Of a stretch of 64,000 nucleotides of DNA, positions 16,839 through 46,976 are shown piece by piece; within the stretch, counting starts at the first letter, position 1; every line of letters starts with the position of its first letter. Under the pieces are notes generated by a model. It saw nothing but the letters and a program-made list of their open reading frames with translations, was not told the origin of the DNA and ran no database searches. The DNA lies in IMG/VR virus record IMGVR_UViG_2788499951_000002, positions 93,857 through 157,856 of that record; one strand, 5' to 3'. This DNA is from a virus (lineage: Duplodnaviria; Caudoviricetes). The translations under genes were made by a program, and so were the position numbers.

Positions 16839-17360
16839 TTATAAGTCGTCGATGGCGATTCGAAGTGTCAGTTCTTCCCATAAGCGCCGACGATCATCTT
16901 CACCGAAGAAGATGACGAGTGGGTCTCTGTCAGTCACACGCAGCTCCTTGATGATGTCACATCCGGTTTCAGGAAGAATCCCCATGTCCAAACAGAAAAT
17001 AATCCTCTCGTTTTTCTCCCGTTCATACACCTCGATTACCACCATTAGGCTCGGGATCGGGAGGTTCATCTCCAGCGTTGAGTCTATGAACACACAGATC
17101 GGTACGGCGTCTTCTAGGTGCCCCCAGAACACCTCCGCCCCATCCAGTATGTGCTCGGATATGATGTCCAATGTATCCGAACGCCCCTCCATTCCGGCGC
17201 GGTTCTTCCCCGCACTACTCACCCACGCATCGAGGCGACGAGTGAATGCATCTCTCACGGGTTGGGAGTCTCTGAAGCTCTTGTACGTCCCCCCAAACTT
17301 CTTACCCAACCAATCGTTGACTCCCATTTGGAGTGAATACTGCGGTGTGATAAGTTCCAT
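16839..17360 (-). CDS. hypothetical, C-terminal tag family (AIDDL*)
   Basis: GAGG RBS before MELIT; shared C-terminal motif. Confidence 0.7.
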   Translation of the reverse strand: MELITPQYSLQMGVNDWLGKKFGGTYKSFRDSQPVRDAFTRRLDAWVSSAGKNRAGMEGRSDTLDIISEHILDGAEVFWGHLEDAVPICVFIDSTLEMNLPIPSLMVVIEVYEREKNERIIFCLDMGILPETGCDIIKELRVTDRDPLVIFFGEDDRRRLWEELTLRIAIDDL

Positions 17361-17367
17361 GGTGGCC

Positions 17368-17937
17368 TCACAGAGTGTCAAGTGCGATATGTTGAAGGAG
17401 GTTGTTGTGGATCTGTCGGGCATCATTCTCCCCGAGGAGAAACAGGATCCCAGACTCGAAGTCTTTCGTGGTGAACCGGTCAATGACACGCCTGACGTGT
17501 CCTATCGTATTGAATTCAACGTCGACAATGTTTTGACCGACACAGGTCATCTCTCCGGCACGGGTGATTCTGGGGTAGAGCAGGATCATATCAGGGGTGT
17601 CAAAGCGACCATGGCAGCTATCATGAAACGCGTCAATCACAATCGCATACGGGAGAACCTCATCATGGTGTGGGCTAGTCGGTGGATGGGATCCGATGTA
17701 TGGGGTTTCATCGATAACAGCATCAAACACCTCGAACACCGAACCAGTGACGTGTGGTGGGTTGATAGTCGTTTGAAACTCACTGTTCTCCCATTCGGAG
17801 AACATGTCGCTGATTTGGATGCGATGTGAATGTCGGGCGAACGTCTCATTATAGATGTCAGGTCGTTCTCTCACTGCTCTAGTCAGTGCGTCCGCAGTGA
17901 GTGGTTCCAAACACGGTGTCTCAAAGTAACGATTCAT
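17368..17937 (-). CDS. hypothetical, C-terminal tag family (ALDTL*)
   Basis: ORF in tightly packed array. Confidence 0.7.
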   Translation of the reverse strand: MNRYFETPCLEPLTADALTRAVRERPDIYNETFARHSHRIQISDMFSEWENSEFQTTINPPHVTGSVFEVFDAVIDETPYIGSHPPTSPHHDEVLPYAIVIDAFHDSCHGRFDTPDMILLYPRITRAGEMTCVGQNIVDVEFNTIGHVRRVIDRFTTKDFESGILFLLGENDARQIHNNLLQHIALDTL

Positions 17938-18506
17938 AATTGCTCCAACGCGTGTTGTGTTTTGAGGTTGTCCATGAGTCTGACTCTATCATCATCTCCC
18001 AGCCAGATCAACATCGGGTTATCAACCGACCAACGCTCGATGTTGATCTGACTCAGTCGCTCCCTGTCTACCATGAACGACCTAGCTACGATCTGACCAT
18101 CATTGGTCACCCCGAGGAGGACCGCGTCATGGCTGAGTTCAGATATTGACTCAGTGACATAAGGAGGGACTGCCATCCGGTCACTGATTATGAACATCGG
18201 GGCAAATTCACGCCCGTCACGAGTGACGACTGCATTATGAGTGTGCTCGGTGGTGAACTCGAGTAACTCTGGAACTCCGTCAGGCGCTGAGCGTTCCTTT
18301 CCGTTGGATTGCAACCATGGCATTGCATGGCGCTCGATCTGTTGCCGAACCACACTGTCATGGGAGACCCATGGGTATAGTCGATATGCACCCTGTATCG
18401 CGGTGACAATGGCGTCAATGAACATGTCAAACTTGACCTGATCAAATTCATCTTCCCCCATGAAGGGAATGCATGGTGATGACAGCATGTTATCGGTATT
18501 GAACAT
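17934..18506 (-). CDS. hypothetical, C-terminal tag family (ALEQL*)
   Basis: ORF in array. Confidence 0.7.
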   Translation of the reverse strand: MFNTDNMLSSPCIPFMGEDEFDQVKFDMFIDAIVTAIQGAYRLYPWVSHDSVVRQQIERHAMPWLQSNGKERSAPDGVPELLEFTTEHTHNAVVTRDGREFAPMFIISDRMAVPPYVTESISELSHDAVLLGVTNDGQIVARSFMVDRERLSQINIERWSVDNPMLIWLGDDDRVRLMDNLKTQHALEQL

Positions 18507-18515
18507 CTCAGACTC

Positions 18516-19085
18516 CTACAGTCGACTCAAGGCACGAATTTCAGCGAACATGTCATGAACCATATCAGATGTCTCTTCGTCTGTAAACAGAAAGAGAGCA
18601 ATCCCGTCGTCACCAATGTCAATCTGCCCATTGATTAGCTTCTCGTGGAACTCCGAGTTGATGTGGACACTCTGTGACACCGCCACGTTAGCGAGCGCAC
18701 AGTTTTCTGTGCCGTTCCCACGGAACGATGCGGTCAAGACACACAGCTCCCAGTGCCCAACCCCCAGTGACTCCAGTTCGAACGAGCCAGCTGTACAGTC
18801 ACAGAACACCCCGATGTTGCGGAAGGCGTTTTCGGGTGCAAGATTGAGGTCATGACCCGACAGATGTGACCTCCATCCGCCCACAGGATCGGCAGCCATA
18901 TTGATGAACTCTTCGAGGTCCATACCCTTCACAGTCGAAAATCCCCTGATGGGTCTGTCTTCGAACTGATACTTCAGAATCGGTGACATATACATGGCGA
19001 CTGAGCTGGTCCAGTCGAGTGCCGACCATTGGCCTGCGATGACAGGAGAGGTATCGATGGCTCGTTGAACACTCGTATTAATCAT
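18516..19085 (-). CDS. hypothetical, tag family (ALSRL*); paralog of 19712..20287
   Basis: shared FSTV.GM, RNIGVFCD, WE.CV, IAL.LFTD.E.SDMV. Confidence 0.75.
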   Translation of the reverse strand: MINTSVQRAIDTSPVIAGQWSALDWTSSVAMYMSPILKYQFEDRPIRGFSTVKGMDLEEFINMAADPVGGWRSHLSGHDLNLAPENAFRNIGVFCDCTAGSFELESLGVGHWELCVLTASFRGNGTENCALANVAVSQSVHINSEFHEKLINGQIDIGDDGIALFLFTDEETSDMVHDMFAEIRALSRL

Positions 19086-19702
19086 AGTGACTCCATGGCT
19101 TGTGTCAGATTGATGAAATGGATGATGTTGTCTGATTCCTCCTTAGAGAGAAACCGTATCAGCATCTCCGGATTGTTGAAATCGAAATCAGGAAGGAACT
19201 GAAGCATCTCATCTTTCGCATACGAAGATCCATATGTGACGGTCAGACCGATCCTGACTCCACCTTCGAACGTCGAGACATCCATACCCTCTCCCCACGG
19301 GGCGGAGTCGGCGTCTACCGGTGAATCAATCGCAATGATGAGGTTCAGGTAGTAGAGTACCGTCCCCTCTGCCGTATATCCCTCATCCTCATCAAACCCC
19401 AGATCGGTGATGACAGCGATGACACGAGCGTCGTCGAGTGCTTTTGTCAGTTCATGCATCGCGAATTCGCCACTGTTGGTGCTGAATATCGCGATGTCTT
19501 CCTCTGACATCGCATCCAAACCGCATGGCTTGGAATGCTCGAACCCCGAATTCTTCCACTCGGTGAAGTGCTCTTGAAACGTATTTCGCACGGCGTGAAG
19601 ACGGGAATCATCACGTCCACACCAGACCGTCATTGCATATGACGATTGGACGGAGAATATCTCATGGTGGGACAGTAACTTGAGGCGTTCCTCATTGAAC
19701 AT
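19082..19702 (-). CDS. hypothetical, tag family (AMESL*); paralog of 20284..20913
   Basis: shared MF.E.RL, WK.SGF, PDFD.NNP..LIRFLS.EESD. Confidence 0.75.
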   Translation of the reverse strand: MFNEERLKLLSHHEIFSVQSSYAMTVWCGRDDSRLHAVRNTFQEHFTEWKNSGFEHSKPCGLDAMSEEDIAIFSTNSGEFAMHELTKALDDARVIAVITDLGFDEDEGYTAEGTVLYYLNLIIAIDSPVDADSAPWGEGMDVSTFEGGVRIGLTVTYGSSYAKDEMLQFLPDFDFNNPEMLIRFLSKEESDNIIHFINLTQAMESL

Positions 19703-19711
19703 CTCAGACTC

Positions 19712-20287
19712 CTACAGTTCGTTGATTGCTCTGATGTCAGAGAAGTGTTTACCCACCATATCAGATGCCTCTTTGTCTGTAAACAGGTAGAGTGCGATAT
19801 GGTCCTCTCCGAGATCGATTCCACCTCCTCGCAGCGACTTCAAGAAGTCTACATTCGCGTATGTGGTTTGACTGATGAATACCTCGTTGATCACCATGGA
19901 GCCGGTTTTCTTGTTTCGTGTGGTCGCTGCGCTTATGACACAGACTTCCCAAGTTTCATCGTTGACCATTGTGTAATTGAAATTAGACCGTGTGAAGTCA
20001 CAGAACACGCCGATATTGCGGATGGTATCCGAGGGCATCGCGTTTATTAAGGATTCAGCGATTCTGACATTGGGACTACGCGTTGGGTCAATGCTCGCAT
20101 TGAGGAAATCAGACAGAGACATCCCCTGAACGGTTGAGAATGTCCGCAGAATGCCATCACTGGTGTGGCGGCGCAGCGCAGATTCCATGTGAGTCTTTAC
20201 CGAATCAGTCCAATTGTAGATCAGATGCTTCTCATTGAGCATATTGAGAGAATCAATCAACGCTTGGGTGGCTGGGTTTGCTTTCAT
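19712..20287 (-). CDS. hypothetical, tag family (AINEL*)
   Basis: paralog of 18516..19085. Confidence 0.75.
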   Translation of the reverse strand: MKANPATQALIDSLNMLNEKHLIYNWTDSVKTHMESALRRHTSDGILRTFSTVQGMSLSDFLNASIDPTRSPNVRIAESLINAMPSDTIRNIGVFCDFTRSNFNYTMVNDETWEVCVISAATTRNKKTGSMVINEVFISQTTYANVDFLKSLRGGGIDLGEDHIALYLFTDKEASDMVGKHFSDIRAINEL

Positions 20288-20913
20288 AAGTCATCCATCG
20301 CAGTGGTGAGGATCAGGTATTCGATCAGGTGATCCGATTCCTCCCTAGAGAGAAACCGAATCAGAGGTATGGGGTTATTATGATCGAAATCTGGGAACAA
20401 GTCAACCATTTCCGACCAGCTCAACATGACGTCCCCATATGCACTGGAGAGCTGTGATCTTATCCTATACCCATCATCATCGAACTCGTTTGATTGATCA
20501 TAAAGTATCGACGGGACAACCTCATCATCAGAGTAATCCCCATGTGCGATCATCGCATTCAGGGGGTATCGACCGTTCTCCCCAGCGATGTCAAATCCGA
20601 AGTCACTGAGAAGGGCAATGATTCTCATCTTACTCAGTTGTGGTGGAGTGAACCCATACACGATATTCGCGATGCTCGTCGGTTGATTTGAATCCCCTGT
20701 TGTAAAGGTGTCATTCTTGATCAGACGGTCGAACCCACTGGGGAGGTCACATGAGAATCCAGACGCCTTCCAGTGTGCATAACGCTTATCGAATTCATCC
20801 ACAAGGCATTGCGGGGGTTCAAGCAAGATCCCCCACGTGGTGATACCACTGCAGAGAAGGTGTTTGAAAATCTCATCTGCTGCTATCTCATTGAGTCGGC
20901 GTTCATCGAACAT
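20284..20913 (-). CDS. hypothetical, tag family (AMDDL*)
   Basis: paralog of 19082..19702. Confidence 0.75.
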   Translation of the reverse strand: MFDERRLNEIAADEIFKHLLCSGITTWGILLEPPQCLVDEFDKRYAHWKASGFSCDLPSGFDRLIKNDTFTTGDSNQPTSIANIVYGFTPPQLSKMRIIALLSDFGFDIAGENGRYPLNAMIAHGDYSDDEVVPSILYDQSNEFDDDGYRIRSQLSSAYGDVMLSWSEMVDLFPDFDHNNPIPLIRFLSREESDHLIEYLILTTAMDDL

Positions 20914-20914: not shown

Positions 20915-21493
20915 TCAGAGTTCCCTCATGGCCACTGTCAGATCGTGGATTTCTGTCATCTGATTCTTCAGTTGGATGCCCTTGTCTTCAGGAATGAAGA
21001 ACCAGACCGGTATATTCTCACCTTTGTTCAATTCAGCAGCCGAGGTGATGTGTTGAATGAGTTCCTCATGCAACCTGATACCTCGGAGGACATTCAGCTC
21101 ATCAACCGCATATGTGAATTCCCCGTCACTGTCGACCGACTGCCAGATCACAGACAGTTCAGGGATATCATCATATCCTTCATCGGTCAATACGGCAAAT
21201 ACCCTCGACTTCTCATAGTCGAACCCACATGGGTAATATGATGTCTTCATCCAGCCGACATGACCCAAGATATCGTTGACACGCCTCGGGGACTCGTTTT
21301 CAAGTGAACACTCCCCCAGCAAGAAATCCGCCATGAGGTGGTCCTCACGGGTGTGTTTTTTCTCTGAAAAAACGGCAGATGCATGATCCTCGATCACATC
21401 GTACATCAGACTCACCGGAACGTAGACGGATGCCCTCCTTTCTGCCATGTAGATGAGTTCATAGACCTTCTGTATTATGACATCGTCCTGCAT
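20915..21493 (-). CDS. hypothetical, tag family (AMREL*)
   Basis: start MQDD overlaps upstream stop, GGAGG RBS. Confidence 0.7.
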   Translation of the reverse strand: MQDDVIIQKVYELIYMAERRASVYVPVSLMYDVIEDHASAVFSEKKHTREDHLMADFLLGECSLENESPRRVNDILGHVGWMKTSYYPCGFDYEKSRVFAVLTDEGYDDIPELSVIWQSVDSDGEFTYAVDELNVLRGIRLHEELIQHITSAAELNKGENIPVWFFIPEDKGIQLKNQMTEIHDLTVAMREL

Positions 21494-22038
21494 CACAATT
21501 CCTCCACGGCTAGACTCATGTGAATCGCATCTTTGACTGTGCGATCCATGGCGGTTGATACAGAGAACCACTCGACGAATCGCTCTGGTGGTGTCGTTAG
21601 AACGCAAGGTTCACTCGGACGGTCTTTTGAATCCATCGAAGCGATCATCTCGTGTAGCTTCCCACTGGTAACGAAACGAGTCAGTGTGAGTTCACCTTCA
21701 TCCCGCCCAGTGAACACCAGAATGCTTTCGTTGGACCCTTGTCCGCCGTATTCACTCATGATCCCGACCAACACATATTCTGTCATGAGGCGATCACGGA
21801 CCCCAATCATGTGGAGAAAATGAAGCAGGTCTTCTACCACACCAGCCAGATCGGCATCGATGAAACGGTCACCCGTCCCAACCTCAAGTGAGCCATTCTT
21901 CCCCTCAGAGATATCCCGCCGCATCACCTCGCGTTCATCCCATGTGATTCGGCTTAGAGCCATCTCGCTGATCGGTGAAGTGTGCCTCAGTATCTCGATG
22001 AAGTTGGTCATGGACTGATCACAGACTAGGCGCGTCAT
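21493..22038 (-). CDS. hypothetical, tag family (AVEEL*); paralog of 22035..22613
   Basis: shared VG.GD.F, GI.SEYG..G.NE, LH..I..MD, EWFS.S. Confidence 0.75.
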   Translation of the reverse strand: MTRLVCDQSMTNFIEILRHTSPISEMALSRITWDEREVMRRDISEGKNGSLEVGTGDRFIDADLAGVVEDLLHFLHMIGVRDRLMTEYVLVGIMSEYGGQGSNESILVFTGRDEGELTLTRFVTSGKLHEMIASMDSKDRPSEPCVLTTPPERFVEWFSVSTAMDRTVKDAIHMSLAVEEL

Positions 22039-22613
22039 AATCCCTCCAATGCGATATACATGTGTACGTATTCGCTGAATTCCTGACCGGCGTCTTTAGA
22101 AATGGAGAACCATTCCGCATGTCGACGCTCGTTTATCGGTATGTCGGCCCACACTCTGCCAACTTGCGCAGTTCGGGGCTTGTCGTCCATCACCTCTATG
22201 ATTGAATGAAGATGAGTATCCATAGTGAAGAGGTAAGATTCATCACCAGTTTTGGTCGTGTCTCGCCAAATTATGACCGTCTCATTCAGCCCATACGGGC
22301 CGTACTCACTGATGATCCCGAACGGGAGTGCCTTGGCTGTGTCGATACCCTCCTCGCGTTGGTATTCTTCACGGAGTCGATATACTAACGACGGGCGCAC
22401 CTTGTGGTGCGTCTCAAGGAACTTGTCACCCGAACCAACCTTGATTCCTTCCGGCGTATACAATTCATCAAGGGACACTGCGATCTCCTCGAACTGGCGA
22501 GTGATGATGATCTTTCGCATCGAATGCCAAGAGATAGAAGTCTCTACCTCTACATGCACCAGAAGCCTTTCGACGTCATCTCGAATGCCCGACGTACTGT
22601 CAAAAACTCTCAT
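22035..22613 (-). CDS. hypothetical, tag family (ALEGL*)
   Basis: paralog of 21493..22038. Confidence 0.75.
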   Translation of the reverse strand: MRVFDSTSGIRDDVERLLVHVEVETSISWHSMRKIIITRQFEEIAVSLDELYTPEGIKVGSGDKFLETHHKVRPSLVYRLREEYQREEGIDTAKALPFGIISEYGPYGLNETVIIWRDTTKTGDESYLFTMDTHLHSIIEVMDDKPRTAQVGRVWADIPINERRHAEWFSISKDAGQEFSEYVHMYIALEGL

Positions 22614-23083: not shown

Positions 23084-23566
23084 TCAAATTGACTCCATCG
23101 CGAGAGACATCTCCACATCGGGATGGTCGACGAATGACGCTGTGAGAAGTTTCACCGCCTCCTGTGTCTCAAGCCTGACGTAGTGTTTTCCCGCCTCACT
23201 GGACCCCTCTACGGTGAACCTGTCGGAAGAACCACGAACCCCATGGGAGAAGAAAACGTTGCGGATGATAACCGAGTCCCCATCTGGTAGATGGCTCGGT
23301 GGTGGAACAGCACTCATTGTGACGGTTAACGTCTCTTCCATTGGATCCCCGAATATCGCCTCAAGCGAAACACCCCAGTCATCCAGCAGTGCATACACAC
23401 ATGTTGAGCTTCCAATGGCATTCATGTATATGGTTCGGTCACCATGTGGAGTTCCGTCGAGGATATATCGAAGCAGCCGCTCAATTGGAGGTGCGAGGAC
23501 GATGTCACCCATCAAGATGGGCTTGTCTTCTGCCAGTAGTCTCATGAAACGATCATAGTTCGACAT
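23084..23566 (-). CDS. hypothetical, tag family (AMESI*)
   Basis: ORF in array. Confidence 0.7.
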   Translation of the reverse strand: MSNYDRFMRLLAEDKPILMGDIVLAPPIERLLRYILDGTPHGDRTIYMNAIGSSTCVYALLDDWGVSLEAIFGDPMEETLTVTMSAVPPPSHLPDGDSVIIRNVFFSHGVRGSSDRFTVEGSSEAGKHYVRLETQEAVKLLTASFVDHPDVEMSLAMESI

Positions 23567-24156
23567 TACAGTTGCTCCAGTGCGATTGAGTCGTTGATTA
23601 TGTTGACAAACTGCATCGGGGCGACGGTAGTGCCGGTGACAACCCTGACATCGACATGGGTCGCCGCCTTAGGGTTACGGGAGAATGAATGCCCACCTCC
23701 CAACCTGCTCGCACCACGGGCGAGGATTCTCTGATTGCCCACGACAGCGTTGAATAATACCTCGATTGAGTGGGGCAGTAGCTCGGATGTATCTGGATCG
23801 TGACAATGAACCGTCAGACACTTGATATGAACTCGTCCGGTGCGACTAGGGACATACACCATCCGTGCCTTGACCGATGTCATGACAGCCATACCATTGA
23901 CCTGAGACATCATGGGTGTCTCGGGTATCACGATCACGTCCATATGGAGGTTGGCCCCGTAAGAAGCCCGAGGGATAACACTGTATCCTTCAGGGTTCTC
24001 AACGAACCCCCGCCATACTGAGAGGCCATCGGAGAGAAGCTTCATCCCTTCGTGCCATTCCGAACGATACGGATCGTTCCACGTCGGTTTGTTTGATTCA
24101 AACGTATCCATTTCAACAATCCCATTGTTGGGGATCGGCGTGATGATTGACGCCAT
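23566..24156 (-). CDS. hypothetical, tag family (ALEQL*)
   Basis: ORF in array. Confidence 0.7.
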   Translation of the reverse strand: MASIITPIPNNGIVEMDTFESNKPTWNDPYRSEWHEGMKLLSDGLSVWRGFVENPEGYSVIPRASYGANLHMDVIVIPETPMMSQVNGMAVMTSVKARMVYVPSRTGRVHIKCLTVHCHDPDTSELLPHSIEVLFNAVVGNQRILARGASRLGGGHSFSRNPKAATHVDVRVVTGTTVAPMQFVNIINDSIALEQL

Positions 24157-24163: not shown

Positions 24164-24979
24164 TCACATTTTGTCGAGAGCGTGTTGGAATTTCAGATCT
24201 TCGAACTCCTGAGAGTCTTTGACCCAATCATAGCACAACATGTAGACATACCAAAGAACAAATTCGTTCATTTCGATCTGGCCGGAGAAATACTGACCAT
24301 TCATCCCAACTCCGTCCATGTCGGCCAGTGACCGAGTGAAGAACTCGTATGAGACATGATCAACATCGAGGAACATGAAGCGACTTTCGATCTCAATGAG
24401 GTGAGTGCTGCCGAACGGTACTTGATAGGTCATCTTGGTCGGCATCAGCTGTTTCTTACCATTGACGTCCAATAAGCCGACCTCGTGAACCGTCGTGTTG
24501 TTCCTCAGCACGCTGGGGTCATCAAGAATACGCTTCACCCCAACGCTGGTGTCGGATGTCACCCCATTCGGATCACTGGCGAGCAGTGAGACGGGTATCA
24601 AGAACAGGTGAATCATGACAGGGAGAAAACTATCATCCCTTGTCAACTCACCAGCCATGAGGAATGATGCCACAACGATGATCGCACCGACTGAAAGCGC
24701 CGCTGTTCCAATCTGGGTTGCTTTCATTCTGGGTATACATTCGAGACGATGACCCTTCACGGTGCAGGTGATAATGGTGATCATCAATGTAATCATAGCG
24801 ATAGCACCGAGGGCTAATAACCGCACCCGCTCCGGTGTGGAGAATCCGTCTATCACGATCAACAACGGAAGGAATGTGATTATGAGCAGTGTGGGAATCA
24901 CTGCTGCCAACTTTCTTCTCCACCGGCGATGCAGCTGAATCGTGATATGGTCTTCATCCGTCAGGTCGCGAAGGATCAT
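24164..24979 (-). CDS. membrane protein (about 4 TM + soluble domain), tag family (ALDKM*)
   Basis: N-terminal hydrophobic helices. Confidence 0.7.
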   Translation of the reverse strand: MILRDLTDEDHITIQLHRRWRRKLAAVIPTLLIITFLPLLIVIDGFSTPERVRLLALGAIAMITLMITIITCTVKGHRLECIPRMKATQIGTAALSVGAIIVVASFLMAGELTRDDSFLPVMIHLFLIPVSLLASDPNGVTSDTSVGVKRILDDPSVLRNNTTVHEVGLLDVNGKKQLMPTKMTYQVPFGSTHLIEIESRFMFLDVDHVSYEFFTRSLADMDGVGMNGQYFSGQIEMNEFVLWYVYMLCYDWVKDSQEFEDLKFQHALDKM

Positions 24980-24988: not shown

Positions 24989-25819
24989 TCAGATTTTTTC
25001 GATTGCGATGCGTTCTTGAGACACCATACCAGTGATGAGGGCATGAATCAATTCGACGGAAGGCGCAGCACTCGATCCCCAGATGGACGCGGTTCTGAGA
25101 TCCGCTGCATCGAATGCAGTTCGGGTCGAAATATCAGCGAGGACACTCGACTTGACCACATCTTCATCTGGCAGTTCAAATCGCAGACCACCCACATGGA
25201 CAACCCCATGGAATTGATGGTCATTGATGATATTCGTCTTGGGATTTCGTGCGACCATCTGGACCTTTGCTGTTGTTACAGCACCGTAATCCTCGATTTG
25301 AGTGGCGACCAGTCGTTCGATGTCACAATTGAATGATAGTTGGAGTGACCCACACTCAATGGTTGCGCTCGAGATCAGATGGACTGGCTTGTCTCCCACC
25401 CGAATGTCGGTTGTCTCAAGATGAGTCACTTCGAACTTCTTTGAGTCCCGCGTCAGGTACAGACGATATGCGATGACTTCAAGTCTGGACAGCGAGGTGT
25501 ACTCCATCAGAGTCCTCATAAGCACCAATCCCATGAAGATGATACCGAGGGACGCCAGACTTAACCCCACCACCGCGACTCCCAGAGGGCGATCATCTGA
25601 TTCCATAAGTATCCCAGCATTGATTCCGTGCGTGATTGCCATCACGGAGCCAAACAAGGAGGCCAGAATCAGCAGAACGAACGGGAGGCGTTTCTGGTAG
25701 ATTCGCGCACGCTTTGCATCTTTCCACCGTCGGCGAGCAACCAGTGTCGGGGACATCCGGATGAAGTGGGCATGGAATCCGAGAAGGACGTTGTAAACAA
25801 CATGGATGATGTAGTTCAT
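24989..25819 (-). CDS. membrane protein (2 TM + soluble domain), tag family (AIEKI*)
   Basis: similar to 25829..26644 (IH..I..MVS.E.IA). Confidence 0.7.
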   Translation of the reverse strand: MNYIIHVVYNVLLGFHAHFIRMSPTLVARRRWKDAKRARIYQKRLPFVLLILASLFGSVMAITHGINAGILMESDDRPLGVAVVGLSLASLGIIFMGLVLMRTLMEYTSLSRLEVIAYRLYLTRDSKKFEVTHLETTDIRVGDKPVHLISSATIECGSLQLSFNCDIERLVATQIEDYGAVTTAKVQMVARNPKTNIINDHQFHGVVHVGGLRFELPDEDVVKSSVLADISTRTAFDAADLRTASIWGSSAAPSVELIHALITGMVSQERIAIEKI

Positions 25820-25828: not shown

Positions 25829-26644
25829 TCAGAGCTGTGAGAGGGCGATGTGTTCCTCTGACACCATGTCAGAGATCATTGAGTGAATCGCGATGCAACG
25901 TGACGTACTGGTGTGTTTGAACCAAGCTTCCATCTGGTTTCCCATGGGGAAGGCTTCACCATAGAGAGACGCGTTGATGCGGACGGATTGCCAGTCACTC
26001 CGAAGCACACCACCGTATGACTGGCCGTTGTAGACGATATCACCACCCACCGATTTCGGCAAGTATTTGATGATGAGCTTGAAGTCAATCGGACCTGAGT
26101 TCGGGTGGCTACCATCTATCTGATCAATGATGATCTTGTCCACATCGAGAAGGAAAGATACAGTCCGGATGCCGTCGTCGAGATCAACCCGAGAGATGAT
26201 GGTGCGTATCTCATTGTTGACCTTTACCTTGGCCGTCCTGATGTTGGTGATCATGATTTCTCTCTTCTTGCGGGATCTCCACATGGAGTAGATGAGTGCC
26301 GCTGCCGAGTCGGTCCGGTTGCTCGGAAGTGCATGTTTGAATCCAAACAGTACGACCCCGATCCCAATCCCACCTATGAGGGAACCAAGTATGGCCAACT
26401 CAGGCACCACCGACCCACCGGCGTTACTCGGCCAATGTCCCCATCCTACCCAAGTCCCCAGACCGATCAGGACGGATCCGAGGACTAGCATCGGGATCAT
26501 CGGGAATGCCTTCAGTGTCTGCATGCGGTGTTGCCAGTGCCAATCACTACTCAGTCCGAGTGGTGATCGCTTGAATCGCATTGCGCGGATGGACATACCA
26601 ACACCCAGACAGAACATCTTGAGGGAGTTCATAAAAGATCTCAT
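25829..26644 (-). CDS. membrane protein (2 TM + soluble domain), tag family (ALSQL*)
   Basis: similar to 24989..25819. Confidence 0.7.
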   Translation of the reverse strand: MRSFMNSLKMFCLGVGMSIRAMRFKRSPLGLSSDWHWQHRMQTLKAFPMIPMLVLGSVLIGLGTWVGWGHWPSNAGGSVVPELAILGSLIGGIGIGVVLFGFKHALPSNRTDSAAALIYSMWRSRKKREIMITNIRTAKVKVNNEIRTIISRVDLDDGIRTVSFLLDVDKIIIDQIDGSHPNSGPIDFKLIIKYLPKSVGGDIVYNGQSYGGVLRSDWQSVRINASLYGEAFPMGNQMEAWFKHTSTSRCIAIHSMISDMVSEEHIALSQL

Positions 26645-37088: not shown

Positions 37089-37298
37089 TCAAAGTTCTTC
37101 TAGGGCATCCAGCACTGACTTGGCGTCAGATGCTTCATCCAGACTGTCATGAAGAGATACCAAATCGATGGTCTGGAAACTGATGATCGCGTGTTTGATC
37201 ACGTCCCCATCATTCGCTTCAAACGGGCCAACGAACTTCCATCTCCGGCGACTGTCATGTTCAGAGACATACACCCTAGCGATACCATAGCGTGACAT
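37089..37298 (-). CDS. mini-protein, tag family (ALEEL*)
   Basis: 69 aa, coupled to upstream ORF. Confidence 0.65.
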   Translation of the reverse strand: MSRYGIARVYVSEHDSRRRWKFVGPFEANDGDVIKHAIISFQTIDLVSLHDSLDEASDAKSVLDALEEL

Positions 37299-38584: not shown

Positions 38585-38764
38585 TCAGATATCCTCAACC
38601 GCTCGCCACATGACGGCATCTTCTTCCTTGTCGAAGAACTTTTCCTGATCGAATTCTTCCTCGGGACATACCCCAACGTGTAGGTAGATGTGGCGGTTGA
38701 ACGATGCACAGAGCCACCCCCTTCCCTCATAGTACAGTGTAAATGGTGTGTTGATATCCATCAT
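38585..38764 (-). CDS. mini-protein (59 aa, not in ORF track), tag family (AVEDI*)
   Basis: hand translation MMDINTPFTLYYEGRGWL...DAVMWRAVEDI*; ATG overlaps upstream TGA. Confidence 0.6.
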   Translation of the reverse strand: MMDINTPFTLYYEGRGWLCASFNRHIYLHVGVCPEEEFDQEKFFDKEEDAVMWRAVEDI

Positions 38765-38991
38765 AGCTCCTCCAGAGCCACCCAGTTTCGGAACTCAACA
38801 ACCGCTGGACCCGTCTTGGTTGAGGAGCACCGGTGAACCGTTTCCCATACCATGTTCCGCAATGCACTCACCGAGTTATTTGCCAGTTGCTCAACCAAGA
38901 AGAGACCTCCCCACTCGACCAAGCGATAGTCACCTTCGTGAGCGATGACATTCGGGATCATATTGCGACGTCCTTTAGGGGCACTCATCAT
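38761..38991 (-). CDS. mini-protein, tag family (ALEEL*)
   Basis: ORF in array. Confidence 0.6.
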   Translation of the reverse strand: MMSAPKGRRNMIPNVIAHEGDYRLVEWGGLFLVEQLANNSVSALRNMVWETVHRCSSTKTGPAVVEFRNWVALEEL

Positions 38992-39155
38992 AATCGCTCC
39001 AATGCGTTGAGTTCATCTCTGAGTTTTTCAGCGGCTTCTTTCGTTAGGAGGGTCATGTGGACCTCCGCGATCCCGTCTGTGTGCTTGAGGATAGCCCAGT
39101 ACGAGTTGCGATGCGTTCGGTCCCCAGACATCTCAACCACGGCGTAATACACCAT
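38988..39155 (-). CDS. mini-protein (55 aa, not in ORF track), tag family (ALERL*)
   Basis: hand translation MVYYAVVEMSG...EAAEKLRDELNALERL*. Confidence 0.6.
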   Translation of the reverse strand: MVYYAVVEMSGDRTHRNSYWAILKHTDGIAEVHMTLLTKEAAEKLRDELNALERL

Positions 39156-39157
39156 GA

Positions 39158-40474
39158 TCAAGCATCCCGAGTATGATGCTTGGGATTGCGATCTGCGTGG
39201 AGTTCCTGCAGGCGCTTGATGTGACCAGTCATCTCATTGATCATATCGCGATACCCCTCAGCCTCGACCTGACGGTCATCGATCAGGGTGCCAGCCGTCT
39301 TCGCATCCACGATGATGGCGAGTGAGGCCAAGGCCGCCGCCAGATGAGGGACTCCATCATCCGGATCGACCTCTTCACCTTCCATGTATGCCATCATGTG
39401 GCGCATCGCGGCATCCACATAGATGGAGGTTCGGACGTTGGATGCTCGGAAGTTGGCCTTGCCATACTTGAGGGCACCGTTGTACAGACCGACTGAACCG
39501 TATGCGGTTGCTGCTGACGGCCAGATGCTCATCGGGATCTTTGAAGAGCCGATGATGTCCTTGGGATTGGCTGCTTCCTCGATGCTCTCGCTCTTGATTG
39601 GCTCCTCAAGTTCATCGTGCCTGATAGTGTGCCTCACTTGGAGACTTGGAGAGTTATCGACGATGCCCACACACTTGAGTGAAGTGTCGTACATGACACG
39701 ACGGAACTCACGGGGAATCGAAGCATCTGCGATATCAACAGCGACACCGAGTTGGACTCGATCTTCCGCCGGAGACGGGGATCCGATGCTATATTCAGAA
39801 CCCCCAGCGGAGACCATGTTGATGTCTTTCGCAGCCTCATAGAATCCATAACCATTGATGAAGATATACTCATACCCATCAGAGAACAGTTCACCACAGT
39901 CCACATGATCCTCGATGTCACCGAACAGCATACGAGCCAGTTCGACGGAAGTAGAGACCTCTGCATCGGCATTGATGTAGCGGCGACCGGTACCTTTCGC
40001 ATATTTCATGTAATTCACACGCTTCTCCTTTGGATGTTGAATATATTCATGTGATTCGTTTTTGATGATGCACGACGTGGGGTTCTTTCCCTGATGATAG
40101 AACTCCACCACCATACTGTCAAGTCTCAGAACGCTGACCCGTGCCAGTTCGGGGATATCAGACCCCCAGCATGCAATCCGAGCGCCCAGTGGGTGGACAC
40201 GCATGTCGGGCTTGATGTCGACACACTTGATACTGTCCCCACGCTCAGGACGGTCAACGGTTCGAAACAGGTGACTACTTGGTTCCGCACACAGTGCGAG
40301 CAAGTCACCGCCGATACCAACACAGACGATATCAAAACCAGTGCTGATGAGGTATCGACGAGCCTCTGGGGTGACGACAGATTGATAAACGTCTTTGGCA
40401 ATACCATTTTGGGCTGACAACACTTCAGTGGTCAGGGTGATCGTTTTTTCACCATTGTCTGCTCGAGTGATCAT
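39158..40474 (-). CDS. protein with C-terminal dATP/dGTP diphosphohydrolase (DUF5664-like) domain
   Basis: NPKD..G..K.P, GALKYG..NFR, Y.DA..RH....EGE..DPD.G.PHLA.A.A.L.I. Confidence 0.75.
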   Translation of the reverse strand: MITRADNGEKTITLTTEVLSAQNGIAKDVYQSVVTPEARRYLISTGFDIVCVGIGGDLLALCAEPSSHLFRTVDRPERGDSIKCVDIKPDMRVHPLGARIACWGSDIPELARVSVLRLDSMVVEFYHQGKNPTSCIIKNESHEYIQHPKEKRVNYMKYAKGTGRRYINADAEVSTSVELARMLFGDIEDHVDCGELFSDGYEYIFINGYGFYEAAKDINMVSAGGSEYSIGSPSPAEDRVQLGVAVDIADASIPREFRRVMYDTSLKCVGIVDNSPSLQVRHTIRHDELEEPIKSESIEEAANPKDIIGSSKIPMSIWPSAATAYGSVGLYNGALKYGKANFRASNVRTSIYVDAAMRHMMAYMEGEEVDPDDGVPHLAAALASLAIIVDAKTAGTLIDDRQVEAEGYRDMINEMTGHIKRLQELHADRNPKHHTRDA

Positions 40475-40692
40475 AAATCCTCCAATGCGTTGAGTGTTTG
40501 GGCCATCTCGTCGGCGGCCTCTTCTGTGTGATGGCGAGAGACCGCCGTCAGAACTGATCTGACTCCTGCATACTGAGTATGGCGCATCTCGAGATTCCTG
40601 TCAATCACAATCCAGTGAAACCCGCCATACAAGGCGGGAACACATTCTACACCATAACGAAGACTCATTTCGACTCCTAGATGATCAGGCAC
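40471..40692 (-). CDS. mini-protein, tag family (ALEDL*)
   Basis: ORF in array. Confidence 0.6.
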   Translation of the reverse strand: MPDHLGVEMSLRYGVECVPALYGGFHWIVIDRNLEMRHTQYAGVRSVLTAVSRHHTEEAADEMAQTLNALEDL

Positions 40693-43108: not shown

Positions 43109-43195
43109 GGCATCTCCTTCGGTAAGTTTGATAATGATACAACGAAAAACGGGAAGAGGCAATGCCCCTTCCCGTTCATTTATGCTACCGTTGGA

Positions 43196-44369: not shown

Positions 44370-44394
44370 CGGTCAATCCTCATTGGTGTTTTAC

Positions 44395-45507
44395 TTACTG
44401 ATTGGCAGCGTCTTCAATCACTTCGCCAATCTTATCGATGATCTGGGAATAAGTCAACCCCAGAATTTCATCGATGGTGCCCAGCAGGAGATGCTCCTTG
44501 TCAGGGCGGATGGTGACGTCACCATTACCTCGCAGTGCGAAGCGATTCTTGCCAACCTGCTCACGGAGAACCGTGCGCAGTTCATCCTTGTTGCGGATGG
44601 TGATATCATCCTCATCGCGGACATCGATGTCGAGATCGACACTCTCAGTTGCACCAGAGAGCATCATACCAAGCTCACCCAGTGCACTTTCGAGCATGTT
44701 CTCCTTGTTCTCGATGCCGTACATCACTTCCATCGGATCATATGCCTCGGTCTTGGTGGACAGTTCGACCGGCATCAGGAGACCATTGGCGTCGATGTAC
44801 ATCTCGTCATCACGCTTGACAACCACGAAGTGTTCGACCGGCTCAGTGTCCTTGGCGTTGAACTGTTCCCAGCTGATGGCACATCCGCGTTCGAGTGCAT
44901 CTTCGTCGCTCAGAGTGATCTCAGTGTACTTGGAGCGCTCGAACTCTTCATCAGTCAGGATACCCTCGGTGACCTCGGTGTAGATGCGAGTGAATCGCTT
45001 CTGCTTCGCCACCACGTTGTCCTCATGCTGGGAAGTCTTACCATAGAACCCATAGGACTCTCGATGAGCCATCAGCTCAGAGTGAGGCTGCACGACGCGG
45101 ATGTCACCACGTGCCCAGAGCATGAAGCCAGCAGAGGCTGCCTCGGAACATACCACAGTGATGGTGTGGCGGAACTTATCCATGATGGTGAACAGTTCCA
45201 GCATCAGATCGACACGACCGCCCGGACTGTTGATGTAGATCATCAGAGTTGGCACGCTTTCTGCAAGGCGGTACAGCTCTGCCAGTTCTCGGGTGTTCTC
45301 CTGCGGGGAGTTGAACTCACCACGAAGATGGAGTTCGATGCGATTGTGCTGCTCGTTAGGCACAATGGTCATGAACTGAGGGAGGGGAAACATTGCCATC
45401 GGGTCCATGCTGCCGCGAGGGCGAGAACGAGAATCTACCTCTCCTTCGACCTGCATGGCGGTGGACGAGAAAACGGACGGCTTGATTGCGGAGAAATCGA
45501 GATTCAT
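44395..45507 (-). CDS. ClpP-like (S14) serine peptidase with C-terminal extension
   Basis: IYINSPGG, AASAG (catalytic Ser), LMAH (catalytic His). Confidence 0.85.
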   Translation of the reverse strand: MNLDFSAIKPSVFSSTAMQVEGEVDSRSRPRGSMDPMAMFPLPQFMTIVPNEQHNRIELHLRGEFNSPQENTRELAELYRLAESVPTLMIYINSPGGRVDLMLELFTIMDKFRHTITVVCSEAASAGFMLWARGDIRVVQPHSELMAHRESYGFYGKTSQHEDNVVAKQKRFTRIYTEVTEGILTDEEFERSKYTEITLSDEDALERGCAISWEQFNAKDTEPVEHFVVVKRDDEMYIDANGLLMPVELSTKTEAYDPMEVMYGIENKENMLESALGELGMMLSGATESVDLDIDVRDEDDITIRNKDELRTVLREQVGKNRFALRGNGDVTIRPDKEHLLLGTIDEILGLTYSQIIDKIGEVIEDAANQ

Positions 45508-45586
45508 GTTGGTGATCCTTTTCGTTTGTTGGTGTGACCATCTTACTTCAAGGGAGGGGGCTTTTCAACCCCCTCGGGTGAGGATT

Positions 45587-46285
45587 TTACTCCTCGGATT
45601 CTTCTACTGCTCCTTCTTCGTACTGACTCACCACCTGCTGGGCCACCGGTTCATCGAGGAACACGATACGACCAGAAGTCGGAGCGTTGTCCTTACCATC
45701 GGCCCAGATGGCGAACGTCAGTGTGGTATCCGACTTGAAAGTGAGGGAGAACTGCTCACCACCGCCGATTGCACTTGAGATGATACCACGGACTTCTTCC
45801 TCGAGGATGATCTCAGGAGTTGAGTTCTCCTCATCGAGGAACATGACATGGGTCAGGTTCTTGATGGCCGACACCACCGGAAGAGTGCGCATCAGACCCA
45901 TCAGATAGTCAGTCAGCTCCTCGTGATCCTGATCAGACAGTTCAGAGACCTTCAGTTGGTTGGTGATCTCGCCAGTGGCGGGAACAGATCCTGCGATGTT
46001 GGTGACGGATACCTGAGTGTGTACGGAAGTGATGCGAAGACCGGTGACGTACTCAGTCGGACTCATCAGCTCGAGACCAGCACTCGGATTGCCCAGTGCT
46101 TTCTTGATCTCTTCATTCTCCGGCTCGAAGTACGCACCCACCACCAGCGGGAATGCACGGACATTCGAGAGCGGGAAGGAGGCGGTCTGCATGAAGTTGC
46201 GGTTCTGTTCAGCAGGGACGCCGTTGTTGAACTCTTCAAAGATCTCTTTGAACAGCGGGGTCTGGGTGGTGGTTTCTTCTGACAT
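45587..46285 (-). CDS. hypothetical acidic protein
   Basis: ORF with AGGAG RBS and own promoter. Confidence 0.7.
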   Translation of the reverse strand: MSEETTTQTPLFKEIFEEFNNGVPAEQNRNFMQTASFPLSNVRAFPLVVGAYFEPENEEIKKALGNPSAGLELMSPTEYVTGLRITSVHTQVSVTNIAGSVPATGEITNQLKVSELSDQDHEELTDYLMGLMRTLPVVSAIKNLTHVMFLDEENSTPEIILEEEVRGIISSAIGGGEQFSLTFKSDTTLTFAIWADGKDNAPTSGRIVFLDEPVAQQVVSQYEEGAVEESEE

Positions 46286-46332
46286 GTGATGATCTCCTGA
46301 TTGATATGTCGTTATGTCTTACTTGAGAGCTT

Positions 46333-46361
46333 AGTCTATCTTGCCTCAACACCAGTGTCAA
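46333..46361 (-). promoter_or_regulatory. sigma70 early promoter
   Basis: TTGACA-17 bp-TAGACT. Confidence 0.65.
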
Positions 46362-46382
46362 CACCGATGTTGGAATTTTTTT

Positions 46383-46976
46383 TTACATCGAGTCTACTGC
46401 ACCGTACATCTCGACGACCGCACGGATCTCCTCAAGGGAAATCACCGAGTCCGTCACACGCATGCATACTGCGTGATTGGCGACATCAAGAGGCGGCAAT
46501 AGCGCATCAGTTGCCTCGATCAACGGCTTGCTTTGTGAATGACCGATGTCGAACTCGAGTCGAGCGATATTGCACATCGCCAGATACCATGTTTCGGTAT
46601 CGTTCTCCGTCACGTGCTCATCGAACTCTCGGAGGTTTTTGAACACACGCAGTTTCTCATGAGTGGTGCCACAGGGCACATACTTTTCCGAACGAATCAC
46701 CGCAGGGTGAATACTCATGAACATCGGACGAGTCTTCACATCTTTATACTCATGACCAGTCCCCGTGACCCATGAAAATGAAATATGAGCCACATCGGAC
46801 GGGAACCCGTACTCTTTCACATACTGGCTGATGCGTTGACAGAATTCCTTACGATGGGTCTCGGTCATGAGATTGACAAGTTCAAACGCATCGATGCGTT
46901 CGATGTGCCCAGTGTCATTGATGTGAGAAGTGTTCTCGAGCAGACTGGTTTGATATCGTTTGGATATGAACGACAT
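46383..46976 (-). CDS. hypothetical, tag family (AVDSM*)
   Basis: AGGAG RBS. Confidence 0.65.
   Translation of the reverse strand: MSFISKRYQTSLLENTSHINDTGHIERIDAFELVNLMTETHRKEFCQRISQYVKEYGFPSDVAHISFSWVTGTGHEYKDVKTRPMFMSIHPAVIRSEKYVPCGTTHEKLRVFKNLREFDEHVTENDTETWYLAMCNIARLEFDIGHSQSKPLIEATDALLPPLDVANHAVCMRVTDSVISLEEIRAVVEMYGAVDSM

What the first reader, a model, noticed from the sequence alone, without database searches (positions are those of the whole stretch)
16839..46976. About 29 dissimilar phage proteins share one C-terminal motif, A-[LMIV]-x-x-[LIM]-COOH: candidate undescribed tagging/sorting system
Seen: the last five residues of leftward ORFs, in order, are AIDDL, ALDTL, ALEQL, ALSRL, AMESL, AINEL, AMDDL, AMREL, AVEEL, ALEGL, AMESI, ALEQL, ALDKM, AIEKI, ALSQL, ALEHL, ALHDL, ALQEL, AVNSL, ALERL, ALEEL, ALEVL, AVEDI, ALEEL, ALERL, ALEDL and AVDSM. 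That is 27 strict matches, plus near-matches AAQQL and TMEGM. The motif usually caps a ~15-20 aa acidic amphipathic helix (e.g. EESDHLIEYLILTTAMDDL, EAAEKLRDELNALERL). The carriers differ widely: 150-210 aa soluble proteins, 220-290 aa proteins with 2-4 TM helices, and 55-76 aa mini-proteins. None of the recognisable enzymes or virion proteins in the window ends this way. The codons differ, so conservation is at protein level, and the position relative to the stop is fixed, implying a free C-terminus is recognised. Inference: a shared docking signal. It could be a degron for the phage's own ClpP/HslV-like peptidases, a substrate signal for the embedded BCS1-like ATPase, or a handle recruiting variable effector domains to one hub. 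I know of no described phage system of this kind.
Basis: partly seen in the sequence, partly recalled or inferred. Interest (0 to 1): 0.92.

Follow-up and report, generated by a model that had tools for sequence, protein, structure and literature searches.

The report
Shared C-terminal tail on phage proteins
About one gene in six of this uncultured 158-kb T4-like phage, all of unknown function and mostly with no detectable mutual similarity, ends in the same short helix tipped by Ala-hydrophobic-x-x-hydrophobic-stop; it looks like a common handle read by one partner that is not yet identified.

Summary
The complete 157,856-bp genome has 7 more, giving 34 strict matches against 0.6 expected. 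The motif sits exactly at the C-terminus, and Ala at -5 is essential.

Part of the motif is nucleotide-driven. Where the next gene overlaps, xTG-GAG-nnn-yTA-TGA also encodes its Shine-Dalgarno site and start codon. This explains most Glu(-3) and the rare Leu codons. Carriers without an overlap still keep Ala/hydrophobic/hydrophobic with varied codons, so selection acts on the protein.

The shared element is about 12 residues and is predicted helical. With it removed, the 36 carriers fall into 29 sequence groups, with only 7 paralog pairs. None has a Pfam or PHROG match.

Phages with about 50% PolB identity carry small-ORF arrays ending in hydrophobic-x-x-hydrophobic-COOH in a syntenic slot, next to a MoxR/zincin-VWA/ClpP-like module, but never with Ala(-5).

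My best reading is a common docking handle with an unknown reader (about 0.4). The main rival is the signature of one explosively duplicated family (about 0.3).

Other agents in this scan noted comparable shared C-terminal tails in other phages.

The parts
16839..17360 (-). carrier, ends AIDDL (173 aa from the SD-preceded ATG; long ORF runs to 17489)
   Evidence: L001 ortholog ends AVEDI
17368..17937 (-). carrier, ends ALDTL (189 aa)
   Evidence: no Pfam
17934..18506 (-). carrier, ends ALEQL (190 aa); weak paralog of 16839
18516..19085 (-). carrier, ends ALSRL (189 aa); paralog of 19712 (37% identity)
19082..19702 (-). carrier, ends AMESL (206 aa); paralog of 20284; AF2 model has C-terminal helix 187-205
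19712..20287 (-). carrier, ends AINEL (191 aa)
20284..20913 (-). carrier, ends AMDDL (209 aa)
20915..21493 (-). carrier, ends AMREL (192 aa)
21493..22038 (-). carrier, ends AVEEL (181 aa); paralog of 22035
22035..22613 (-). carrier, ends ALEGL (192 aa)
23084..23566 (-). carrier, ends AMESI (160 aa); its stop is followed by a strong sigma70-like promoter
23566..24156 (-). carrier, ends ALEQL (196 aa)
24164..24979 (-). membrane carrier, about 4 hydrophobic segments, ends ALDKM
24989..25819 (-). membrane carrier, 2 hydrophobic segments, ends AIEKI; paralog of 25829
25829..26644 (-). membrane carrier, 2 hydrophobic segments, ends ALSQL
26641..27501 (-). membrane carrier, 2 hydrophobic segments, ends ALEHL
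27509..28813 (-). BCS1-like AAA ATPase without the tail, embedded among the membrane carriers (candidate reader)
   Evidence: BCS1_N 2e-13, AAA 4e-16
28822..29490 (-). membrane carrier, 1 hydrophobic segment, ends ALHDL
29492..30172 (-). membrane carrier, 2 hydrophobic segments, ends ALQEL
35299..35787 (-). carrier, ends AVNSL (162 aa)
35784..36215 (-). carrier, ends ALERL (143 aa); AF2 gives hairpin 91-110 plus helix 127-142, pLDDT about 80
36225..36638 (-). near-match carrier, ends AAQQL
36638..37078 (-). near-match carrier, ends TMEGM
37089..37298 (-). mini carrier (69 aa), ends ALEEL
37298..37732 (-). carrier, ends ALEVL (144 aa); paralog of 35784
38585..38764 (-). mini carrier (59 aa), ends AVEDI
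38761..38991 (-). mini carrier (76 aa), ends ALEEL
38988..39161 (-). mini carrier (57 aa), ends ALERL
40471..40692 (-). mini carrier (73 aa), ends ALEDL
46383..46976 (-). carrier, ends AVDSM (197 aa); lies between the ClpP-like and zincin/VWA genes
44395..45507 (-). ClpP-like peptidase (Ser and His conserved), no tail; candidate downstream protease
47944..49518 (-). zincin (HExxH) + VWA (MIDAS DxSxS..T..D) protein, DUF2201 type; candidate reader
49614..50837 (-). MoxR-like AAA+ ATPase, partner of the VWA protein
   Evidence: synteny

Best explanation
The shared element is a short C-terminal helix of about 12 residues: an acidic N-cap near -12, hydrophobic positions at -10 and often -8, then invariant Ala(-5), hydrophobic(-4), two polar residues and hydrophobic(-1) directly before the stop.

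I read it as a portable handle. One partner protein would recognise the Ala/hydrophobic/hydrophobic face of the last helical turn together with the free carboxylate. That would bring some 36 otherwise unrelated, fast-evolving proteins (soluble acidic ones, mini-proteins and membrane-anchored ones) to the same place or the same fate. These proteins are probably made early in infection.

Shown here: the motif is real, sits exactly at the C-terminus, is under protein-level selection, is the only thing most carriers share, and is specific to this lineage.

Inferred: that a reader exists, and which protein it is. Candidates, none tested:
- the MoxR / zincin-VWA / ClpP-like module, whose MIDAS site could ligate a carboxylate;
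- the BCS1-like ATPase embedded among the membrane carriers;
- a host hub or protease.

Where genes overlap, the tail's codons are also used as the ribosome-binding site and start codon of the next gene. This shapes Glu(-3) and codon choice but does not create the motif.
For: Enrichment and position:
- 34 strict matches against 0.6 expected; shuffle maximum 4.
- 29 at offset 0 against 0-2 at other offsets.
- No excess of hydrophobic-x-x-hydrophobic ends without Ala.

Protein-level selection:
- All four Ala codons are used.
- In the 21 non-overlapping carriers only 6 have xTG at -4 and 3 have GAG at -3, yet the motif holds.

Extent of the shared element:
- Between-group similarity covers -12 to -6 (p = 1e-8) and stops there.

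Unrelated bodies:
- hhalign between groups aligns only the last 10-21 residues.
- With 12 residues cut off, iterative HMM search gives 29 components for 36 carriers.
- No carrier tested against Pfam (35 of 36) or PHROGs (20 of 36) has a significant match.
- An exhaustive profile search with the group A alignment (14 sequences) over 1.84 billion proteins finds only this lineage.

Comparison with relatives:
- In the close relative L001, changes stay within the motif classes (AIDDL to AVEDI, ALEQL to ALEHL), and an extra carrier absent from this genome ends in ALETL.
- Relatives at about 50% PolB identity have, in the syntenic slot, small ORFs ending hydrophobic-x-x-hydrophobic-COOH but 0 of 17 with Ala(-5). 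The three proteins in that slot here all have Ala. A genome-wide change of this kind fits a co-evolving reader.
- Slickus01, the nearest named phage, has 0 of 197.
Against:
- AF2 models place the tail as a moderately confident helix (pLDDT 70-85) directly after a beta-strand or hairpin. It may therefore be a structural part of each protein rather than an exposed tag.
- Carriers sit in tandem arrays with seven paralog pairs. Leave-one-out profiles link a few more group A members. A single founder with later divergence could therefore explain the shared end and the shared Ala.
- The arrays in the relatives are visibly paralogous, with shared N-termini in L011.
- The MoxR/VWA pair also occurs in phages without such tails: Slickus01 and N4-like phages.
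- BCS1-like neighbourhoods in L005 and L006 have no tails.
Confidence: 0.4

Rival explanations
1. Family signature without a reader. The carriers descend from one or a few founder genes that multiplied by tandem duplication in this lineage and diverged beyond recognition. The terminal strand-plus-helix is the structural core that could not change, and the fixed stop is kept in place by translational coupling to the next gene.
For: - Tandem, co-oriented arrays with seven paralog pairs.
- A duplicated two-gene unit with an identical junction, TAG-GAGTCTGAG-ATGTTCAAT.
- Leave-one-out profiles link 20915 (E = 2e-5) and 16839/17934 to other group A members even with the tails removed.
- AF2 places the helix with pLDDT 70-85 directly after a strand or hairpin.
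- Arrays in the relatives are clear paralogs.
Against: - Most carriers show no similarity once 12 residues are removed (29 components). Groups C/D and T fail the leave-one-out test.
- Carriers range from 57-aa minis to 4-TM membrane proteins.
- Ala is present in 35 of 36 with no Gly, Ser, Cys or Val substitutes, and the end is exact. That is tighter than structural helix ends usually are.
- Even under this reading the tail must be the most strongly selected part of every member.
Confidence: 0.3
2. Degron. The tail marks proteins of the early programme for timed destruction. The destroying machine would be a host protease that reads non-polar C-termini (ClpXP, ClpAP, FtsH, Lon), or the phage's own MoxR / zincin-VWA / ClpP-like module, whose MIDAS metal could bind the terminal carboxylate.
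For: - The tail needs a free C-terminus with a non-polar tip.
- Sigma70-like promoters precede the arrays.
- The phage encodes a ClpP-like peptidase with Ser and His kept, and a zincin/VWA protein with HExxH and a complete MIDAS.
- In three relatives, the arrays lie just upstream of that module.
- Kaur et al. 2020 (PMC7159879) describe fast-diverging small proteins with a conserved C-terminal peptide processed by a zincin next to vWA-MoxR systems.
Against: - No match to known degrons: the ssrA LAA tip and the MuA-type tail (own knowledge).
- The tail is predicted helical and placed directly after a strand, which is unusual for an unstructured degron.
- The module occurs in phages without tails.
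- Nothing here measures stability.
Confidence: 0.12
3. Pure by-product of gene packing. The last five codons are conserved only because they hold the Shine-Dalgarno sequence and overlapping start codon of the downstream gene.
For: - In the 15 overlapping junctions, 14 have xTG at -4, 11 have GAG at -3, and 12 use the rare TTA/CTA Leu codons (6% of genome Leu) that create TATGA.
- The unrelated contig L007 shows QME[SD][LI] ends with the same nucleotide pattern.
Against: - The invariant Ala is not part of any SD or start signal, and it uses all four codons.
- The 21 non-overlapping carriers keep the motif with other codons and with the SD located after the stop.
- Slickus01 and L005 also pack their genes tightly and lack the motif.
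Confidence: 0.05
4. Capsid or ejection targeting signal: a C-terminal analogue of the N-terminal capsid targeting sequence of T4 internal proteins.
For: - This is a T4-type phage (gp13 and gp15 homologs).
- T4 internal proteins are a hypervariable set that share only a short terminal targeting peptide (PMC3012670).
Against: - Carriers are mostly strongly acidic (net charge down to -24), and six are membrane proteins.
- They lie in replication and early-type regions behind sigma70-like promoters.
- There are 36 of them, which is far more than known packaged sets.
Confidence: 0.03

Closest known systems
Capsid targeting sequence (CTS) of T4-type internal proteins (PMC3012670)
   Same: In T4-type phages, a hypervariable set of accessory proteins shares nothing except a roughly 10-residue terminal peptide that addresses them to one partner.
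   Different: The CTS is N-terminal, is cleaved by the prohead protease and sends basic proteins into the capsid. Here the element is C-terminal and helical, sits on acidic and membrane proteins, and has no known partner.
Shared C-terminal docking tails of phage replisome and transcription proteins: T7 gp2.5/gp4 acidic tails ending in Phe, and T4 gp43/gp33/gp55 clamp-binding ends (own knowledge)
   Same: Several different phage proteins end in the same short tail, whose last hydrophobic residue and free carboxylate dock on one hub.
   Different: Those tails occur on 2-3 known replisome or transcription proteins. Here 36 proteins of unknown function carry the tail and no replisome protein does. 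The PolB C-terminal part here ends KELFQIG.
FxSxx-COOH-type peptide-processing modules linked to vWA-MoxR systems (Kaur et al. 2020, PMC7159879)
   Same: Small, rapidly diverging proteins have a conserved C-terminal peptide and are encoded near a zincin metallopeptidase and a vWA-MoxR pair.
   Different: The motif is different. There is no radical SAM/SPASM enzyme, and no AP-ATPase or TPR effector was seen. Here the zincin is fused to the VWA domain, and adjacency is seen in relatives but only loosely in this genome.
Adaptor and degron tails read by AAA+ proteases: ssrA LAA-COOH, SspB XB tail, HslU C-terminal tail (own knowledge)
   Same: A free, non-polar C-terminal tip is recognised by one machine.
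   Different: The sequence does not match any of them. The tail here is predicted to be part of a helix that follows a strand. No ClpX, HslU or HslV is encoded by the phage (for HslV).
Encapsulin cargo-loading peptides (own knowledge)
   Same: Dissimilar cargo proteins share a C-terminal peptide that docks on an HK97-fold shell.
   Different: The motif is different, the carriers here include membrane proteins, and there is no evidence of encapsidation.

Membership tests
T4-type capsid targeting sequence | N-terminal position, with a prohead-protease site (L/I-x-E) at its end | tested here: not met
   The element is at the extreme C-terminus. No conserved N-terminal peptide is visible in the carrier alignments.
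T4-type capsid targeting sequence | Carriers are found in the virion | not testable with these tools
   Needs virion mass spectrometry.
Clamp-binding or replisome C-terminal tails | The tail is present on the polymerase or other replisome proteins of the same phage | tested here: not met
   PolB parts, ligase, SSB-like protein, RNR and the clamp-loader homolog do not end in the motif.
FxSxx-COOH / zincin peptide-processing module of vWA-MoxR systems | Small fast-diverging precursor with a conserved C-terminal peptide | tested here: met
FxSxx-COOH / zincin peptide-processing module of vWA-MoxR systems | Adjacent zincin metallopeptidase and vWA-MoxR genes | tested here: inconclusive
   The zincin/VWA and MoxR genes are present. 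They lie directly downstream of the arrays in L011-L013. Here they are next to only one carrier (46383-46976), and the pair also occurs in phages without tails.
FxSxx-COOH / zincin peptide-processing module of vWA-MoxR systems | One of the four described C-terminal peptide types (FxSxx, RxD, acidic run, FtsH-associated), and for the FxSxx type a radical SAM/SPASM partner | tested here: not met
   The motif is A-hydrophobic-x-x-hydrophobic, which is not one of the four types listed in PMC7159879. No radical SAM match appeared among the window proteins scanned. The rest of the genome was not scanned for it.
ssrA / C-motif degrons of ClpXP | C-terminal LAA-like tip, unstructured | tested here: not met
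   The tip is [LIM] preceded by two polar residues and is predicted helical.
HslU-tail / HslV docking | An HslV-type peptidase encoded by the phage | tested here: not met
   PF00227 gives no match in the complete genome, while the control genomes do match.
PDZ-read C-terminal ligands | A PDZ domain encoded by the phage | tested here: inconclusive
   PF13180 (PDZ_2) gives no match in the genome. Other PDZ models and host PDZ proteins were not tested.

The most novel reading that the evidence does not exclude
The tail is the address label of a phage-encoded protein-handling system. The MIDAS metal of the zincin-VWA protein would bind the free carboxylate and the Ala/hydrophobic face of the last helical turn. 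The MoxR ATPase would remodel the captured protein, and the zincin and/or the ClpP-like peptidase would process or destroy it. About 36 unrelated proteins would then be handled as one class. The label and its reader would co-evolve between lineages: Ala(-5) here, Tyr(-7) and Leu(-4) in relatives. Other agents of this scan reported comparable tails in other T4-like phages that carry the same gene pair, which would make this a widespread, undescribed phage mechanism.
Probability: 0.12. Interest if true: 0.92.

Novelty: new variant of a known kind. Interest (0 to 1): 0.74.

Why it matters
One gene in six of a large phage is tied together by a single short peptide. A single experiment, a pull-down with the tail or a reporter fused to it, could therefore assign a common partner or fate to dozens of proteins of unknown function at once.

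If a reader exists, this would be a new way for phages to organise their accessory or host-takeover proteins, and a portable tag for delivering cargo during infection.

If instead the tail is only a family signature, the case documents an extreme burst of duplication and divergence in which 12 residues survive. It also gives a clear example of how overlapping translation signals shape protein C-termini.

Tried and rejected
Searches for relatives:
- No nucleotide match to known phages, and no tblastn match for a carrier.
- IMG/VR scans with the BCS1-like protein and with the zincin/VWA alignment found no relatives.
- Neither a word-seeded search with one group A carrier nor an exhaustive HMMER search with the group A profile found anything outside this lineage.

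Structure and fold searches:
- ESM Atlas gave only poor models and no meaningful neighbours.
- For the group A model, the best Z was 3.0. Several HORMA proteins scored Z 2.2-2.6, which is too weak to use.
- For the group C model, the best Z was 4.7, to generic sheet-plus-C-terminal-helix arrangements.
- PDB sequence profiles found nothing.

Tests of deeper homology:
- An apparent common mini-domain with a conserved Trp in groups C and D did not survive leave-one-out testing once the tail was removed. I do not claim it.
- The E-group proteins and the L007 trio, which occupy the same slot, show no sequence similarity.

Reader candidates:
- HslV (PF00227) and PDZ_2 (PF13180) are absent from the genome.
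- The clamp-binding idea is rejected because replisome proteins lack the tail.

Other:
- The apparent loss of the motif in L001 2269-3105 is a 1-nt difference in an A-run, with identical downstream codons. It is probably an assembly error or a very recent frameshift.

Full report
CONTEXT

The window is bases 93857-157856 of a complete 157,856-bp virus record with direct terminal repeats. It is a T4-type phage:
- gp13- and gp15-like neck genes appear in the syntenic relative;
- it has class I RNR, a gp32-like SSB, an ATP-dependent ligase, DsbA and a split family-B polymerase.

It has no nucleotide match among 50,697 phage records. The nearest named phage, Alishewanella phage Slickus01, shares 44% identity in PolB.

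THE OBSERVATION

Scanning the whole genome adds seven strict carriers outside the window.

Numbers:
- In a heuristic set of 216 genes, 29 carry the motif. The count is 34 with the small or overlapped genes that the greedy caller missed.
- Expected is 0.6 from amino-acid composition and 0.6 from the internal rate of the same pattern.
- 1000 shuffles give a mean of 0.63 and a maximum of 4.
- The pattern occurs 29 times exactly at the end and 0-2 times at each offset from 1 to 7.

Ends of the form hydrophobic-x-x-hydrophobic without Ala at -5 are at chance level, 10 observed against 9.9 expected. Ala is therefore part of the signal.

Relative entropy per position is 3.7 bits at -5, 2.9 at -1 and 2.2 at -4, then about 1 bit at -3, -8, -10 and -12.

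NUCLEOTIDE OR PROTEIN?

I split the carriers by how the next gene starts.

In about 15 carriers the next start overlaps the stop (ATGA or TRATG):
- 14 have xTG at -4;
- 11 have GAG at -3;
- 12 use TTA or CTA at -1. These codons make up only 6% of Leu codons genome-wide.

So xTG-GAG-nnn-yTA-TGA is at once L/M/V-E-x-L-stop, a GGAG Shine-Dalgarno site and an overlapping ATG. The same nucleotide pattern gives QME[SD][LI] ends in small paralogs of an unrelated contig, L007.

In the other 21 carriers the SD lies after the stop:
- only 3 have GAG and 6 have xTG;
- residue -3 is any polar residue;
- Ala, hydrophobic(-4) and hydrophobic(-1) persist with many different codons.

Ala uses GCA 18 times, GCC 10, GCG 5 and GCT 2. 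The core motif A-hydrophobic-x-x-hydrophobic-COOH is therefore selected at the protein level. Glu(-3) and codon choice are largely by-products of translational coupling.

HOW FAR THE SIMILARITY EXTENDS, AND HOW DISSIMILAR THE BODIES ARE

- A position-specific score trained on other groups separates carriers from other C-termini over -12 to -6 (p = 1e-8) but not beyond -13. The shared element is about 12 residues long.
- It is depleted in Pro and Gly and is net acidic.
- AF2 predicts it to be helical up to residue -2 in both models.
- BLASTP finds only six paralog pairs among the window's carriers.
- hhalign between eight provisional groups aligns only the last 10-21 residues.
- With 12 residues cut off, iterative HMM search gives 29 components for 36 carriers.
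- Leave-one-out profiles connect a few more members of the first array (20915 at E = 2e-5; 16839/17934) but none in the 140-aa/mini group or the membrane group.
- A visually appealing common mini-domain in the latter is therefore not established.
- No carrier tested has a significant Pfam match (35 of 36 scanned) or PHROG match (20 of 36 scanned).
- An exhaustive profile search with the group A alignment over 1.84 billion representatives returns only this lineage's own proteins.
- Six carriers flanking a BCS1-like ATPase have 1-4 hydrophobic segments. Most others are strongly acidic.

STRUCTURE PREDICTION

- The group A representative (19082-19702) has mean pLDDT 62 and pTM 0.68. It is an alpha/beta arrangement ending in strand 181-184 and helix 187-205, with local pLDDT about 70-85.
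- The group C representative (35784-36215) has a confident C-terminal 55 residues (pLDDT about 80): hairpin 91-110 plus helix 127-142.
- Neither model matches a known fold convincingly. The best Z scores are 3.0 and 4.7.
- The tail thus looks like the end of a helix that follows a sheet, not like a disordered appendage. I could not inspect coordinates, so burial of the motif residues is unknown.

RELATIVES

- L001 is a 25-kb Logan contig with 66-99% protein identity. It keeps the motif on all orthologs. Substitutions stay within the allowed classes (AIDDL to AVEDI, ALEQL to ALEHL, ALSQL to ALSRL). It carries one extra carrier ending in ALETL. One apparent loss is a 1-nt homopolymer difference.
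- Slickus01 has 0 of 197.
- L005 is a contig whose BCS1-like protein is 57% identical and which shares the neck-gene synteny. It has none within 21 kb.
- The closest PolB relatives (about 50% identity; L011, L012, L013) share a conserved gene order: DnaE-like part 1, an array of 3-8 small ORFs, a GroES-like gene, a 320-aa protein, MoxR, zincin/VWA, ClpP-like, DsbA, PolB.
- Their small ORFs end in [D/E]-Y-x-x-L-hydrophobic-x-hydrophobic-COOH, or similar forms. Ala is at -5 in 0 of 17.
- The three carriers at genome 73417-75305 occupy the same slot here, between DnaE-like part 1 and the GroES-like gene, and all three have Ala.
- A hydrophobic-x-x-hydrophobic-COOH end is therefore old in this clade. 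The Ala version, and its spread to about 36 genes, is specific to this lineage.

CANDIDATE READERS

- The zincin/VWA protein keeps HExxH and a full MIDAS motif.
- The ClpP-like protein keeps Ser and His.
- Kaur et al. 2020 describe fast-diverging small proteins with a conserved C-terminal peptide processed by a zincin beside vWA-MoxR systems, and argue that vWA domains capture peptides through the MIDAS site (PMC7159879).
- This makes the module a reasonable candidate. However, the same gene pair occurs in Slickus01 and in N4-like phages without such tails, and here only one carrier is adjacent to it.
- The BCS1-like ATPase sits among the six membrane carriers in this phage and in L001, but its homologs in L005, L006 and L007 have different neighbours.
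- No HslV and no PDZ_2 domain is encoded.

VERDICT

- there is a protein-level, free-C-terminus signal on mostly unrelated bodies;
- part of it is a translational-coupling by-product;
- part of the array is paralogous;
- the tail is probably a folded helix;
- no reader is known.

I rate a common docking handle at about 0.4, a reader-less family signature at about 0.3, a degron at about 0.12, a pure packing artefact at about 0.05 and capsid targeting at about 0.03.

Notes of other agents in this scan report similar genome-specific C-terminal tails in other uncultured phages, several of them with the same MoxR/VWA pair. I used these as leads only. The one point I re-examined, adjacency to that module, holds in three relatives but is not specific.

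Noticed in passing
window 32086-33009 and 41390-43162 (- strand): The family-B DNA polymerase is split into an N-terminal part (590 aa) and a C-terminal part (307 aa) that lie 8.4 kb apart. In Slickus01 and in L011-L013 the two parts are adjacent or separated by one small gene or a GIY-YIG endonuclease. Here the gap holds 12 tail carriers, two HNH endonucleases and a MazZ-like gene.
   Followed up: partly
window 39158-40474 (-): A 438-aa protein whose C-terminal 100 residues match the dATP/dGTP diphosphohydrolase N-terminal domain (MazZ-like, E = 3e-19). This hints at modified nucleotide metabolism. The N-terminal 290 residues have no match.
   Followed up: no
window 44395-45507, 47944-49518, 49614-50837 (-); L011, L012 and L013 at about 6000-9300: MoxR AAA+, a zincin (HExxH) fused to a VWA domain with an intact MIDAS, and a ClpP-like peptidase form a contiguous, conserved triad in three relatives. 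Here other genes are inserted between them, and the zincin/VWA protein carries an 80-residue acidic, Gly-rich insert.
   Followed up: partly
window 23080-23052 (-) and 31900-31872 (-): Near-consensus sigma70-type promoters: TTGACA-17-TATGAT directly after the stop of 23084-23566, and TTGACA-17-TACTAT upstream of the ligase gene. They suggest host-RNAP (early) transcription of the arrays.
   Followed up: no
window 18507-18515 and 19703-19711, with the adjacent gene starts: The identical junction TAG-GAGTCTGAG-ATGTTCAAT follows both 18516-19085 and 19712-20287. This points to tandem duplication of a two-gene unit (20284+19712 and 19082+18516).
   Followed up: partly
genome 75317-75625 (L008:3318-3626); L005:3001-3309; L007:11255-11545; L011:4419-4715: A conserved gene of about 100 aa with a weak full-length Cpn10/GroES match (E = 0.003), presumably a gp31-like co-chaperonin. 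It sits inside or next to the small-ORF arrays in every relative examined.
   Followed up: partly
L007:13683-14795: Four tandem small paralogs whose C-terminal halves resemble a winged-helix pattern (L..lGVv....g.y.L...eeAl) and that end in QME[SD][LI].
   Followed up: no
L002-L004 (Slickus01), record positions 1925, 21108, 69335, 72713: Four Slickus01 proteins end in [FI]-L-E-(G)-V (DDFLEV, VFLEV, EFLEGV, DILEGV). This may be a different shared tail, perhaps a replisome-docking one.
   Followed up: no
L001:2269-3105 against window 26641-27501: A single extra A in an A-run shifts the frame of the L001 ortholog and removes its tail, although the downstream nucleotides, including GCA CTG GAG CAC TTA TGA, are identical. 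This is an assembly error or a very recent frameshift.
   Followed up: yes
window 22618-23025 (-): A Hydrolase_2 (SleB-type cell-wall hydrolase) gene, 99% identical in L001, sits in the middle of the carrier array and lacks the tail.
   Followed up: no
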